A stretch of DNA of 64,000 nt from Podarcis liolepis (Eukaryota), in assembly GCA_965112155.1 (NCBI GenBank), contig OZ218106.1. One strand, given 5' to 3'. The notes under the pieces are model-generated. The model saw nothing but the letters and a program-made list of their open reading frames with translations. It was not told the origin of the DNA and made no database searches. The position numbers were made by a program, and so were the translations under genes. The stretch's first letter is position 1; each line of letters begins with the position of its first letter. Positions 15,868 to 61,134 of the stretch are shown one piece after another.

Positions 15868-18800
15868 TCAGATCTCACCCAGGTCTTCGTAGACGGAGGC
15901 CGGCCGGCTCTCGTCCACCGACTGCTCCTCCCGACTGCCCCCCCCAGAGCGACCGGGGCTGGCCAGGGGCGGCTTCACCACCTTGCTGTAGAGGGGCTCC
16001 TCCCCCCCGCGGCCACTGTTGTTGTTGTTGCTGTTGCCGGGGGCCGGCCTGGGGGCTCCTGGCTGGGGGGGCTTCTTGTGGGTGCGGGGGGGCTTGGGGG
16101 CAGGGCAGGGCTTGGGGGGCTTGGAGAGGCCTTGCTTCGGGGGGAAGGCCGGCACTGAATATTCCCCCGTGCCCAGCACACAGGGCAGCTCGTAGCCAGC
16201 CGGGCTCTCCATGCCCTGCGTCCGCCAGGCCTCGCAGGGGAGGCGGGCCTCGTCGTAGATGGCAGTGGGGGTGGGGGTCGGCCACTGGGCCCGCCCCTCC
16301 GGCTCGTCGTAGATGTGCTTGTCCTGGCCGCCACCAGGCCCCACCTCCTCATACAGCAGTTTGCTCTGGAGAGGGCAACGCTCCTTGCCCCCCTCGCGCC
16401 GGCTGTCCACGGGTTCCGCATAGAGGGCGTCCGGCCGGGGGCGAGGGGCCCTGAGCGCGTCCAGAGGCTCGGAGTAGACGTTGCCCGCGTCCTCGGGGGG
16501 CAGTGCGTGTCCTGGCACCTCGGGGAGCGGGGAGCGGGGGGGAGTGCTGGGCCACTTGGCCAGAGGGTCCCTCAGGCCCAGCCCCTTGGCGGGGGCCACC
16601 GCCTCCTCTTCCTCCGCAGCAGCAGTGGCAGCGCTGAGCTTGGCCAGGGCCGGGCGCAGGCCGGGCCTCTCGGGGGCCAGAGCGGGCGCCAGGCTCTCCC
16701 CCTCCAGACTGAGCGAGCCGGCCAGGGCGCCCGGGAGCTGGCCCAGCTCGGCGTCCAGGGAGCAGGTGCTGTGGCGATGCTCAGCCACCTGTGCCTTCTG
16801 CGCCTGAATGGCCGCCTCCACCACGTGGAAGATCTCGTTGCCCTGCTTGGTCTCAAAGGTGAAGTTGCCTGGCCCAGACTCACAGCGCCGGCCGGCTTCA
16901 AAGGAGAACATCACCTGCGGGGCAGAGAGCGGGCACAGTCAGGGGCCGCAAAGGAGCGCCGGGGGCCAAGAGGACCCTTTGAGGGGTACAGGAACCTCCC
17001 CGCCCCTGCTCTGCCCACTCTGAGCACAAGCCCCGCCAGCCAGGAACCCCACAGGGCCAGCAAGAGAGCTTCTGAGCTGGCCGTAAAGCCCTTGGGCAGC
17101 ACAGAAGGCAGTGCCAGCTGGGCACCTCCTCAACCACTGAGGGAGCCCAGCCCCCATCACCAGCTCTCCCAGGGCAGCTCTTTGGCAGACAGGCAGCAAG
17201 AGCAGCTCCTCCTGTTCACAGAGTTGCAGAATTGAAAGGGCCCCTGAGGGGCATCTAGTCCCACCCCCCTGCAAAGCAGGAATCTCAACTGAATCACTCC
17301 TTGGGCTTCCATGATCCTGCCCCCATGGTCCGGCCCCCAGTAATGCAGCCTCCCACCTGCCTCTCCCTGCCACATGCACCCCTCCTCCTGGACCCACCTT
17401 GTCCCGGCCATATCTGCGGAGCAGGCGGTAGGGCCAGGTGAAGAGGGGCTGGTTGGAGTGGGGGTCCCCAAGGATGAGGCCCTCGCCGGACGCCTTGAGC
17501 ACGTAGACCCCCTGCAGCTTGCAGCGCTCAGCAGCCTCCGTCTTCTGCACCGTCACCCAGAACTCGCTGACTGTGGCCAAGGGGGAGAGTCAGAGCAGGA
17601 GACCCCCAGGGACCCTCGGGGGGGGGGCAGGCACCCGCCCAGCAGCCGTCACCCCAGAATCAGCAGCCCGGCAGCCAGAGTCCTCCCAGCCCAAGCTGCA
17701 TTTTCCAAAGCGGGGGACTCCCAGCATGCAATTCTGTCCTGCAGCAGCCGTGACTTCCTATGGCACTCCCTCTGCCCCACCACCCAAACTACGGGGGGGG
17801 GGGAACTGGCTGAAAGTCTGAGCTCTGCTCCTGAGCGCCTCCTACCTTCCTCTCGGGAGTAATAAATGGCGTTCATGGCCATCTCCAGGGGTCGCCCCCC
17901 AGTGCAGTCGGCCGCAGGCTGTGCTCCTTTGCCAGGGTTGCCCTGCCGGGAGAGAAGACCGTCAGCAGACACCCCCAGCCCTTCCCAGGAATGGCAGCTC
18001 CTCTGCTGCAGGGGGCGTCCAGGGCACCCCCGGCATGCACAGCACCCCTGCCGCCCCTGAGCACGGCCGGGGGGGGGGCAAGGAGTGAAGTGGGGGGCTC
18101 TTCCCACCAGCCAAGGCTGACCAGCCCTCCACTGTCCCTGGAACATCGGGAGCTGCCTTATGCAGAGCCAGCACAGTATTGTCTACACTGGCTGGCAGCA
18201 GCAGATGAGCAGGGTTTCAGGCAAGGGCCTCTCCCTGCAAGTCGCTGAGACCCCCCCCCAACCGCCACCCCAGGGTGGGCTCACCAGAAAGGCTGCCTCG
18301 CAGAGCCTGGCCATCCAGTCGGCCGCCTCGTGGGGCTCGGCGGCAAAGAGGTAGCTGCGCTCGCTGGTCTCCAGGCGGAAGGCGGAAAGGCCCTCCTTGG
18401 GGCTGCCGTCTGGGGCGGGGGCCACGCTCACGCAGTCCGCCAGGCGCACAATCTTCTTGTCCAGGCGCCTGGTGCCCACGCGCTCCGCCGGCACAGGACC
18501 CTCCTTGCCGTCGAAGAACTCCAGGCGCGCCACACCATGCGGGCTGGCCGGGTAGAGCACAAACCAGCTCTTCTTCCATCGCTGCAACGAGAGGCAGAGG
18601 GGAAATGGGGCCGGAGGAGCCGCAGGGACAGGCAGTCAGTGCACTTGGAGCCTGCCTTTCTGCAAGCAGGGAGTTTGCACACAACCAGGGAAGGGTCTGC
18701 CCTCCCCTCGCTGCCTTCAGCTGGCGTATGAGAGGCCCAACAGGTGCCTCCAAGTCAGGGTTCGAGGAGAGCCCAGTGCACACGCCCACAACCCCAGGTG

Positions 18801-19877
18801 GCCAACATGGAGCCCCCATCCCTGCTGAGCAGGGGCTGATGGGAAGTGCAGTCCAACCAGTCCCTGGAGGCCCCCTGGCTCCCCCTGCAGGAGCCGATCC
18901 CCTTGCGCCCCAATGGGGGCTTAAGAGGCTTTAGCTTCTTTCTCTGGGGAGGGGCTCCAGTCACGTAGGAGGAAGCCGGCCACTTCTTAATCATATTAAT
19001 GCTTTTATTTCTTTATCTGCTGCGCAGCTAGCTGGGCTGCCCTACCCGCTCTGGGCGGCTTCCATCAAAATATTAAAAAGCCATAGAGTAAAGCATCAAA
19101 GATTAAGAAAGTCCCTACACGGGGCTTCCCCTCCCTGGTTCCTGTGCTCCACTTGGGGGGAGAAGTGGTGGAAAGACCCTGAAGGAGGCTGGTCTGGGCG
19201 AAGAGCGGTCAATCCGGCCTGGTCCAGTTCTGCTCCCGGCAGCGTCCACGACGCCCCGCCCCGTCTGGGCCAAACCAGGAGGTACCCCTATTAGCACCCC
19301 GGGGCGCTGGGGGGGGGATGCGCTCGTCTGGCGCGCCTTTGTGGAAAGGGCCGGGAAGCCCCGAGAAGAGAGCAGAGCCCGTCGCCGGGACCGGACCCAG
19401 AGCTGGAAGCTGGACGGGCGGCCCCGGAGGGCGAGGCAAGGCGCCCGAGCGGCAGGAAGGAAGGCTGCTGCTGCTGCCGCCGCCACCGCTTCCTTCGCGC
19501 GCGGCTCCTCCGGCTTCGACGGGGCGTCAGAAGAAGGGAGAGCACGGGAGGTGCCCCAAGCAGCCCAGGAGCGGGTCCCGGATGGGCCTCGGGCAGGGAG
19601 GGGGCCGGGGCAGCCCACGGGGCCCCCATCCCGAAGGGGCCGCGCTTCCGGGCCGCGCCGGGTCCAGGAGAGTCGCCCCGCGCTTTCGCCCCGCGCAGAG
19701 ACCGCGCTGCCGGCAGCGCCCCATCCCGGAAGCGCCGGCGGGCGGGGGGCGTGGGGCGCTGGGAGCAGCCCCCGCCGAGGAGCCCCGGCCGCGGCAGGGC
19801 GCCCTTACCTTGGCGCCGATGCGCAGCCCCGACGGCTGCTGGAGCAGGAGCGGCCCGGCCTTGACCGGCGGGTCCAT
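15868..19877 (-). CDS. DOK1: Docking protein 1 (p62dok; PH + PTB domains and tyrosine-rich tail), 5 exons, ~560 aa
   Basis: Exons 19877-19809, 18581-18285, 17942-17846, 17570-17398, 16914-15868, all [82 protein letters not shown]. Tail has YSEP, YAEP, YDEP, YELP, YSVP and LYSKV. Position between M1AP and LOXL3 matches human. Confidence 0.95.
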
Positions 19878-60900: not shown

Positions 60901-61134
60901 TTGGGGCCAGCTCCGCCTGGCGCAGTTTGCGGCAGAGGCACGTGGGGGGTGGCTGCCCGGGGGCTCCTCTTCGCCCTCCTCCAGGTCCTTGAAGCGCACC
61001 TGCTGGGCGCGGTGGCGGCGGCGGCGCTGCAGGCGGTCCTCAGCACCCGGCGAGTCGCGCTTGAGCAGCACGGAGCGGACCCCGGCGACAGCCTTCTCTT
61101 GCCCGGCCTCCGGGGCTGCCTCCTGGCTGGCCAT
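54919..61134 (-). CDS. INSYN2 (FAM196)-family protein, probable third paralogue, 3 coding exons, ~483 aa
   Basis: Exons 61134-59957, 57760-57686, 55117-54919 (phases 2,2); strong Kozak gctgccATGG. Family motifs VRSVLLKRDS, RAQQVRFKD, QTSPSL, coiled coil LQSLEGVLETSQRTIKVLLDVIQDLEKKEAQRDG, YRTGQDTTNCGTCRDCACIIYSVEHDFREQE and C-terminal KKSRRKCFWFL. Acceptor at 61556-61555 indicates an upstream non-coding exon. Confidence 0.9.
55923..56110. mobile_element. Penelope-like fragment with internal inversion
   Basis: 12-bp direct repeat CCCTCCTTAACA at 55911-55922 / 56111-56122; 23-bp inverted repeat at 55928-55950 / 56033-56055 (22/23 match). Confidence 0.7.
58428..58548 (+). mobile_element. SINE with tRNA-like head and CR1 tail
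   Basis: A-box-like TTGGCTCATTTGGTTGGAGC and B-box-like GGTTTGATTCCC, followed by CR1 tail GGGTTGGACTAGATGACCCTCAGGGTCCC. Confidence 0.6.
58628..59632 (+). mobile_element. 5'-truncated L1-clade LINE (ORF2 C-terminus with CCHC finger, 3'UTR, poly(A) tail) with 17-bp TSD
   Basis: Uninterrupted ORF 58653-59357 with CWKC-x8-H-x4-C; AATAAA 59604-59609; A15 at 59618-59632; identical flanking CAGAAACTCTGAGTAGA at 58611-58627 and 59633-59649; AT-rich against the GC-rich host. Confidence 0.93.

What the first reader, a model, noticed from the sequence alone, without database searches (positions are those of the whole stretch)
15868..61134. Window preserves a fuller ancestral paralogon than human 2p13
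DOK1, LOXL3, HTRA2, BNIP3-like and INSYN2-like sit within ~45 kb. Their human paralogues cluster on 8p (DOK2, LOXL2, BNIP3L, HTRA4), 10q (LOXL4, HTRA1, INSYN2A, BNIP3) and 5q35 (DOK3, INSYN2B). This supports a whole-genome-duplication origin of the two extra genes, with later mammalian loss at the AUP1-DQX1 junction. Such GC-rich regions are often missing from assemblies, so the genes may be overlooked.
Basis: partly seen in the sequence, partly recalled or inferred. Interest (0 to 1): 0.7.

Follow-up and report, generated by a model that had tools for sequence, protein, structure and literature searches.

The report
Lizard keeps gene copies mammals lost
A lizard chromosome tip carries intact third copies of the mitophagy-receptor gene BNIP3 and the synapse-linked gene INSYN2; they are likely leftovers of the early vertebrate genome doublings that mammals likely lost, and the INSYN2 copy likely outlived the large gene that once housed it.

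Summary
In a lacertid lizard, 124 kb from a telomere, the order is M1AP-DOK1-LOXL3-HTRA2-AUP1-[BNIP3-like]-[INSYN2-like]-DQX1. Both extra genes are intact. They share the coding-exon layout of their paralogs, which lie elsewhere in this genome.

The BNIP3-like gene is spliced in relatives' contigs and groups with BNIP3L2, a copy reported as fish-only. It also occurs in birds, axolotl and cartilaginous fish. The INSYN2-like gene belongs to an apparently unnamed third clade running from sharks to birds. They are therefore not squamate duplicates, and genome-doubling origin is likely.

Corrections: the paralogon and BNIP3L2 are already published, and HTRA3, not HTRA2, is the ohnolog. Mammalian loss is only indirectly supported, and in gar the two genes' block sits on another linkage group.

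New points:
(1) INSYN2A and INSYN2B sit inside DOCK1 and DOCK2, but here the expected host, DOCK2L, is missing although birds keep it at this spot.
(2) All 10 sauropsid BNIP3L2 proteins aligned lack the PPTC7-binding SRPE motif, which predicts escape from FBXL4 turnover.
(3) IL12B-like and neurofilament-like genes lie just beyond DQX1.

This is solid comparative genomics of a known kind.

The parts
4868..5136 (+). M1AP first coding exon (gene continues to about 13 kb; end not mapped)
   Evidence: ATG at 4868; name recalled from likeness and position; no Pfam hit
15868..19877 (-). DOK1 coding span (ohnolog of DOK2, DOK3)
23748..35217 (+). LOXL3 coding span (ohnolog of LOXL2, LOXL4)
   Evidence: SRCR and lysyl oxidase domains; ends; name by position
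37752..41766 (-). HTRA2 coding span; not the ohnolog of HTRA1/HTRA4
41963..46086 (+). AUP1 coding span
   Evidence: two spliced joints in contigs
48678..48683 (+). CACGTG box 82 nt upstream of the BNIP3L2 start codon; a possible HIF or E-box site, untested
   Evidence: a single hexamer, no enrichment test run
48760..48790 (+). BNIP3L2 coding exon 1 (phase 1)
   Evidence: a contig piece ends at 48790
48992..49118 (+). BNIP3L2 exon 2: LIR-like motif (SWVEV) and NIX SLiM-like motif (MERILLEAQLE)
   Evidence: loose ends of exon-3 contigs match this exon's 3' end
50603..50654 (+). BNIP3L2 exon 3
   Evidence: GT..AG joint to exon 4 in 3 of 4 runs
50924..50997 (+). BNIP3L2 exon 4: SPPE in place of the SRPE PPTC7-binding motif
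   Evidence: joint to exon 5 in 3 of 4 runs
51118..51258 (+). BNIP3L2 exon 5: most of the transmembrane tail anchor with the SHxxAxxxG dimer face
   Evidence: joint to exon 6 in 3 of 4 runs
51702..52212 (+). BNIP3L2 exon 6 (stop at 51748-51750) and 3' UTR to AATAAA at 52207
   Evidence: a contig ends at 52211
54642..55117 (-). INSYN2-like last exon (stop ends at 54919) and 3' UTR; poly(A) signal at 54669
   Evidence: contig pieces in 2 of 3 contig runs end at acceptor 55117 and in the third at 55121; raw RNA reads lie on the minus strand
57686..57760 (-). INSYN2-like middle coding exon (cysteine-rich motif)
58623..59630 (+). 3' end of a non-LTR retrotransposon with poly(A) tail, inside an INSYN2-like intron; unrelated to the finding
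   Evidence: 244-aa open frame and tail; class recalled, not tested
59957..61134 (-). INSYN2-like first coding exon
   Evidence: Pfam FAM196 E 1e-16; 97% to a Podarcis muralis protein

Best explanation
The two extra genes are intact third copies of BNIP3 and INSYN2 that were likely made by the early vertebrate genome doublings, are kept in lizards, birds and fishes, and were likely lost in mammals from the AUP1-DQX1 interval. Shown: intact frames, paralog-type exon structure, splicing of the BNIP3 copy in relatives' contigs, and deep clades that reach cartilaginous fish. Inferred: the BNIP3 copy (BNIP3L2) works as a tail-anchored outer-mitochondrial mitophagy receptor. It would dimerise through its membrane helix and bind LC3/GABARAP through its LIR. 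In sauropsids it has lost the SRPE motif and is predicted to escape PPTC7-FBXL4 turnover. Also inferred: the INSYN2 copy was ancestrally nested antisense in an intron of the fourth DOCK1/2/5 ohnolog (DOCK2L), as its paralogs are in DOCK1 and DOCK2, and it survived the loss of that host in this lizard lineage.
For: Paralogs lie elsewhere in the same genome: BNIP3 on C5, BNIP3L on C17, INSYN2A on C5, INSYN2B on C2. Intron phases are shared, 5 of 5 for BNIP3, so this is not a retrocopy. BNIP3 tree (51 rows): the window gene joins squamates and birds (99/99) inside a clade with teleost, axolotl, chimaera and skate proteins (92/86), apart from BNIP3 (100/99) and BNIP3L (92/87). Forcing the 10 sauropsid rows with BNIP3 or BNIP3L is rejected (AU p 0.021 and 0.020). 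By eye the teleost rows match the medaka BNIP3L2 printed in the PMC5526904 supplement. INSYN2 tree (44 rows): the window gene sits in a 42-row set that follows species phylogeny from chimaera to birds, apart from own INSYN2A/B. Both genes share a contig of equal length in Pogona, Hemicordylus, Phaenicophaeus and the quail Cyrtonyx (473,595-bp scaffold, accessions 6 apart). PMC8040251's table places LOXL3, DOK1, TLX2, [BNIP3L2] and [DOCK2L] in the same quadruplicate; finch DOCK2L lies between TLX2 and LOXL3. Three genome-wide DOCK searches each find five loci and none on C9. 0 of 74 DOCK2/DOCK5 exon peptides hit C9:1-388k at E<0.01; in the control, 37 of 37 DOCK5 peptides hit the DOCK2 region. 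SRPE is present in 0 of 10 sauropsid rows, against 8 of 8 fish and cartilaginous-fish BNIP3L2 rows, 9 of 9 BNIP3 and 7 of 8 BNIP3L.
Against: The pan-vertebrate BNIP3L2 clade is not starred (92/86), the sauropsid branch is long, and two cyclostome proteins fall inside the clade. The INSYN2 tree is a quick tree without an outgroup and without fish or shark INSYN2A/B, and its two paralog rows are long branches that the tool flags as possibly joined falsely. No mammalian genome was searched. 0 of 98 named INSYN2-like hits are mammalian, but that search also returned no obvious INSYN2A/B and scored only its top 7,993 candidates. Gar has BNIP3L2 and DOCK2L on LG2 and LOXL3, DOK1 and TLX2 on LG4. Nesting in bird DOCK2L was not seen directly. 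The contig runs are only guessed to be RNA, and the one raw RNA run shows almost no BNIP3L2 3' reads (depth 0.16). No function was tested.
Confidence: 0.82

Rival explanations
1. The genes are younger segmental duplicates, made in the amniote or squamate line, that landed next to AUP1.
For: The sauropsid BNIP3 copy is fast-evolving (36% identity to both paralogs), so its tree position could be distorted. The subtelomere holds many repeats.
Against: Both clades include cartilaginous and ray-finned fish. AU tests reject grouping with either BNIP3 paralog. The sauropsid proteins share diagnostic residues with fish BNIP3L2.
Confidence: 0.05
2. The genes are true ohnologs of this ancestral chromosome, but their tight linkage with AUP1, LOXL3 and DOK1 was put together later by rearrangement; the window keeps ancestral gene content, not ancestral order.
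For: Gar has DOCK2L and BNIP3L2 at LG2 0.24-0.35 Mb, while DOK1, TLX2 and LOXL3 are spread over LG4 1.9-4.4 Mb. In this lizard the BNIP3-INSYN2A pair is 3 Mb apart and BNIP3L-DOCK5 0.6 Mb apart.
Against: Finch chromosome 4 corresponds to gar LG4 plus LG2, so the split may be gar-specific or an assembly effect. Bird and lizard order agree.
Confidence: 0.35
3. BNIP3L2 in sauropsids is a decaying, relaxed copy with no distinct role, and loss of SRPE is simple degeneration on the way to the loss seen in mammals.
For: Long branches, a shorter protein (157 aa against 206 and 214), a degenerate BH3-like region, and an axolotl variant SRLE.
Against: The frame, the LIR-like and SLiM-like motifs and the membrane dimer face are kept across lizards and birds, and the gene is spliced in contigs of four studies.
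Confidence: 0.3
4. DOCK2L is present in this lizard but missing from the assembly, or INSYN2-like was never nested in it.
For: GC-rich subtelomeric genes are often dropped from assemblies (own knowledge). Bird nesting was not observed directly.
Against: The interval is gap-free (0 N in the window and flanks), both INSYN2-like neighbours are within about 20 kb, and no DOCK exon is found here or as a sixth locus in the genome.
Confidence: 0.2

Closest known systems
BNIP3L2, the third vertebrate BNIP3 paralog (PMC5526904; bracketed entry in the PMC8040251 supplement)
   Same: Same clade in the tree; same diagnostic residues in the SLiM and membrane tail; same quadruplicate of paralogon 14.
   Different: PMC5526904 calls it present only in ray-finned fish and coelacanth, and PMC8040251 lists it only for gar. 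Here it is in lizards, birds, axolotl, chimaera and skate (and, by likeness, alligator), and the sauropsid form lacks SRPE.
BNIP3 and BNIP3L/NIX mitophagy receptors
   Same: Six coding exons with the same phases; LIR-like WVEV; SLiM; C-terminal membrane helix with the SHxxAxxxGxxxG face.
   Different: 36% identity, about 50 aa shorter, degenerate BH3-like region, and no SRPE motif for PPTC7.
INSYN2A/INSYN2B (FAM196A/B), nested in DOCK1 and DOCK2
   Same: FAM196 family; three coding exons with matching junctions; conserved N-terminal, coiled-coil and cysteine-rich blocks.
   Different: A separate shark-to-bird clade that databases label 'INSYN2B-like' or 'INSYN2A-like'; in this lizard it has no DOCK host around it.
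LBX2/TLX2 (NK cluster) paralogon, paralogon 14 quadruplicate A (PMC2446394, PMC8040251)
   Same: DOK1, LOXL3, HTRA2, AUP1, DQX1, TLX2, PCGF1 and LBX2 in the same order.
   Different: Four further genes here (BNIP3L2, INSYN2-like, IL12B-like, neurofilament-like). PMC2446394's main text has 0 hits for bnip, fam196, il12 or nef, and PMC8040251's supplement (held cut) has 0 hits for INSYN, FAM196 or IL12B.

Membership tests
BNIP3 family | Pfam BNIP3 domain above cut-off | tested here: met
   Orthologs score 45-50 bits against a cut-off of 26; single window exons alone are below the cut-off
BNIP3 family | LIR motif with preceding serine, and NIX SLiM with central leucine | tested here: met
   SWVEV and MERILLEAQLE; motif definitions from PMC5526904 section 14. 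The LIR's last residue is V, not L
BNIP3 family | C-terminal membrane helix with dimer face | tested here: met
   Hydropathy 2.36; the Pogona ortholog aligns to BNIP3 TM structures 2j5d and 2ka1
BNIP3 family | SRPE PPTC7-binding motif | tested here: not met
   SPPE; 0 of 10 sauropsid rows have SRPE. Motif importance from PMC11316107 passages. The motif also varies in invertebrate members, so this affects regulation, not membership
BNIP3 family | Mitochondrial location and mitophagy activity | not testable with these tools
   Needs cell assays
BNIP3L2 orthogroup | Clusters with fish BNIP3L2 apart from BNIP3 and BNIP3L | tested here: met
   Clade support 92/86 (moderate); alternatives rejected at AU p about 0.02
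INSYN2/FAM196 family | FAM196 domain and three-coding-exon layout | tested here: met
INSYN2/FAM196 family | Nested antisense in a DOCK1/2-type intron | tested here: not met
   True for own INSYN2A and INSYN2B but not for the window gene
2R ohnolog | Duplication older than the jawed-vertebrate split | tested here: met
   Chimaera, shark or skate members in both clades; the INSYN2 tree is unrooted
2R ohnolog | Paralogs on the matching paralogous chromosomes | tested here: met
   C5 holds BNIP3, INSYN2A, DOCK1 and an HTRA; C17 holds BNIP3L, DOCK5 and an HTRA; C2 holds INSYN2B, DOCK2 and IL12B
2R ohnolog | Single-copy invertebrate outgroup | tested here: inconclusive
   Met for BNIP3; no invertebrate INSYN2 was found or sought
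Gene lost in mammals | Absent from monotreme, marsupial and placental genomes | not testable with these tools
   Indirect only: blanks for opossum and human in PMC8040251; short TLX2-LOXL3 distance, 19 kb in human and 31 kb in opossum between listed coordinates, against about 120 kb here
HTRA1/3/4 ohnolog set | HTRA2 is the member on this quadruplicate | tested here: not met
   HTRA3 fills that slot, and a second HTRA lies on C9 at 74.3 Mb (named HTRA3 by position)

The most novel reading that the evidence does not exclude
Reptiles and birds have an overlooked third mitophagy receptor, BNIP3L2, that has shed the PPTC7-FBXL4 brake and acts as a long-lived receptor controlled by transcription; and lizards show a nested gene that survived deletion of the roughly 50-exon DOCK host on both sides of it.
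Probability: 0.3. Interest if true: 0.62.

Novelty: new member of a known kind. Interest (0 to 1): 0.42.

Why it matters
It corrects the published range of BNIP3L2 from fish-only to most jawed vertebrates outside mammals. It also exposes a mislabelled third INSYN2 gene, so that orthology calls and bird or reptile mitophagy and hypoxia studies that count two BNIP3 genes are incomplete. The natural loss of SRPE gives a direct test of how mitophagy receptors behave without PPTC7-FBXL4 control. The DOCK2L-INSYN2 pair offers a dated case of a nested gene outliving its host. None of this changes the picture of vertebrate genome doubling, which already includes this block.

Tried and rejected
The genome-wide Pfam BNIP3 search missed the window gene, so family searches under-call this copy. 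The DHR-2 search missed two of the five DOCK-A/B loci, so it was not used as absence evidence; two exon searches replaced it. The run search listed no holder on record as RNA. In the first read lay, short repeats swamped the joint table. The eLife 'elusive genes' supplement (PMC10208646; 4 files searched, one held cut) had 0 hits for bnip, fam196, insyn, aup1 or dqx1. I considered equating the gene with zebrafish bnip4 (search listing only) but could not verify it and do not claim it. The Atlas search only confirmed the family. A PDB search of the IL12B-like Ig exon found nothing. Three look-ups of earlier findings returned nothing. Albula's INSYN2-like protein shares a contig length with its BNIP3L, not a BNIP3L2; the locus tags are far apart and I drew nothing from it. 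No structure or complex prediction was run. Literature searches for prior reports were made; none listed a paper on sauropsid BNIP3L2, a third INSYN2 or DOCK2L loss, but the library lacks most subscription papers and database-curated names were not searchable.
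Full report
Setting. The window is C9:124,001-188,000 of a 1.57-Gb genome. Telomere repeats fill the first 12 kb of that contig. The closest protein hit is 97% identical and comes from Podarcis muralis, so this is a lacertid lizard. GC is 0.61, and the window and the 324 kb of flank fetched contain no N.

Observation. The named genes are present: DOK1, LOXL3, HTRA2 and AUP1. After AUP1 comes a six-exon BNIP3-like gene on the plus strand (48760-51750, 157 aa) and a three-exon INSYN2-like gene on the minus strand (61134-54919, 483 aa). Beyond the window lie DQX1 (from C9:204,133), an IL12B-like gene, a neurofilament-like gene, TLX2, PCGF1 and LBX2 (names partly read by eye). 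SEMA4F lies upstream of M1AP (by eye).

Both extra genes are real. BNIP3-like has intron phases 1,2,0,2,2, identical to own BNIP3 (C5) and BNIP3L (C17). In four contig runs from four studies (RNA by the tool's guess), the exon 3-4, 4-5 and 5-6 joints each appear as GT..AG skips in 3 of 4 runs. Loose ends in 2 of 4 runs match exon 2, and one contig ends at the poly(A) signal. For INSYN2-like, contig pieces in 2 of 3 contig runs end at the last acceptor (55117) and in the third at 55121. Raw single-cell reads lie on the minus strand at its 3' end (depth 5.8), with AUP1 on the plus strand as control (27.5). The same run shows almost no BNIP3-like 3' reads (0.16), and the INSYN2-like joints themselves were not among the rows shown.

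Age, BNIP3-like. A profile of 8 reptile and bird proteins found 106 representatives. I took 36 of them, plus 5 cluster members, the three lizard genes and 7 earlier orthologs (51 rows), leaving out fragments and near-duplicates. The window gene groups with squamates and birds (99/99), inside a 22-row clade (92/86) with teleosts, axolotl, chimaera, skate, one unnamed protein and two cyclostome proteins. BNIP3 (100/99) and BNIP3L (92/87) are separate (names). Holding the 10 sauropsid rows with BNIP3 or with BNIP3L is rejected (AU p 0.021 and 0.020), though long branches weaken these tests. The teleost rows match by eye the medaka BNIP3L2 in the PMC5526904 supplement. That paper (section 14 and passages read) says BNIP3L2 is present only in ray-finned fish and coelacanth.

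Age, INSYN2-like. The search gave 109 hits. Of the 98 named, all are squamates, birds, turtles, cartilaginous fish or ray-finned fish; none is a mammal or amphibian. A quick tree of 39 of them, 2 cluster members and the three lizard genes follows species phylogeny from chimaera to birds and leaves own INSYN2A and INSYN2B outside (96, flagged as a long-branch join; no outgroup). A squamate-specific origin is excluded.

Synteny. The two genes share a contig of equal length in Pogona, Hemicordylus and Phaenicophaeus, and a 473,595-bp scaffold in the quail Cyrtonyx, with accessions 6 apart. This links them to each other, not directly to AUP1. PMC2446394 (one part and passages read) already describes the LBX2/TLX2 block as one of four paralogons, derived from the NKX3.2 cluster. 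The PMC8040251 supplement (rows and two parts read; file held cut) lists LOXL3, DOK1, TLX2, HTRA3, [BNIP3L2] and [DOCK2L] in paralogon 14 quadruplicate A, with BNIP3L2 filled only for gar. A chicken BNIP3-like protein does exist in RefSeq, which supports 'overlooked'. Against strict ancestral order, gar has BNIP3L2 and DOCK2L on LG2 and LOXL3, DOK1 and TLX2 on LG4, though both linkage groups correspond to finch chromosome 4.

Loss in mammals. This could not be tested directly. The listed TLX2 and LOXL3 coordinates are 19 kb apart in human and 31 kb apart in opossum, against about 120 kb here. DQX1, AUP1 and HTRA2 must fit into those gaps, which leaves little room. Platypus is unknown.

The missing host. 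Own INSYN2A lies antisense inside DOCK1, and INSYN2B inside one DOCK2 intron. Finch DOCK2L lies between TLX2 and LOXL3, and chicken DOCK2L lies 32 kb from LOXL3, which is where the window's INSYN2-like gene sits. In this lizard three searches each find five DOCK-A/B loci and none on C9. 0 of 74 DOCK2/DOCK5 exon peptides match C9:1-388k at E<0.01, while 37 of 37 control peptides match. I infer that the nested gene survived loss of its host. Nesting in birds was not seen directly.

How BNIP3L2 likely works. It keeps the LIR-like motif with its serine, the SLiM that NIX needs, and the membrane dimer face, so it likely acts as a tail-anchored mitophagy receptor. PMC11316107 (passages read) shows that NIX needs W144 and the SRPE motif to bind PPTC7, and that mutants are stabilised and raise mitophagy. 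The window protein reads SPPE. SRPE is in 0 of 10 sauropsid rows, 8 of 8 fish and cartilaginous-fish BNIP3L2 rows, 9 of 9 BNIP3 and 7 of 8 BNIP3L; axolotl has SRLE. Escape from PPTC7-FBXL4 turnover is predicted, not shown; relaxed decay is a live rival. For INSYN2-like, a role as an inhibitory-synapse scaffold is inferred only from the family name and recall.

Verdict. The finding is real and largely as read, but its frame (the paralogon, BNIP3L2 as an ohnolog) is published. The additions are a wider range for BNIP3L2, an apparently unnamed third INSYN2, the likely orphaning by DOCK2L loss and the SRPE change. Ten literature searches listed no report of these, within a library that lacks most subscription papers; parts of supplements that were cut may bear on this. 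Interest 0.42; new member of a known kind.

Noticed in passing
G000:C9:253,700-261,700 (+), loci L022-L023: IL12B (p40)-like gene between DQX1 and TLX2, over the Pfam IL12p40_C cut-off; the other copy is at C2:49.92 Mb, 0.9 Mb from INSYN2B. Probably another ohnolog absent from human 2p13.
   Followed up: partly
G000:C9:269,700-273,200 (-), locus L024: Neurofilament/internexin-like intermediate-filament gene next to TLX2 (Pfam Filament E 5e-56); subfamily read by eye, probable further ohnolog.
   Followed up: partly
protein P0167: An unnamed 110-aa protein almost identical to the window's BNIP3L2 that skips exon 5, which holds most of the membrane anchor; a possible soluble isoform.
   Followed up: no
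window 58623-59630: Poly(A)-tailed 3' end of a non-LTR retrotransposon with a 244-aa open frame, inside INSYN2-like intron 1; another related piece lies near C9:383.7k.
   Followed up: no
G000:C9:12,400-17,500 and 43,300-49,000: Two near-identical gag/pol-type LTR retroelement copies with long open frames next to the telomere; observed only.
   Followed up: no
G000:C9:56,000-88,000 (+): Multi-exon HEAT-repeat (MROH-like, by eye) gene between the telomere and SEMA4F.
   Followed up: no
window 41766-41963: HTRA2 and AUP1 start codons are 197 bp apart, head to head, on one CpG island. One contig of AUP1's 3' end runs to 47260, well past the first poly(A) signal.
   Followed up: no
window 47500-48000: A CpG island (observed/expected 0.86) about 0.8 kb upstream of the BNIP3L2 start codon; a possible alternative promoter.
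   Followed up: no
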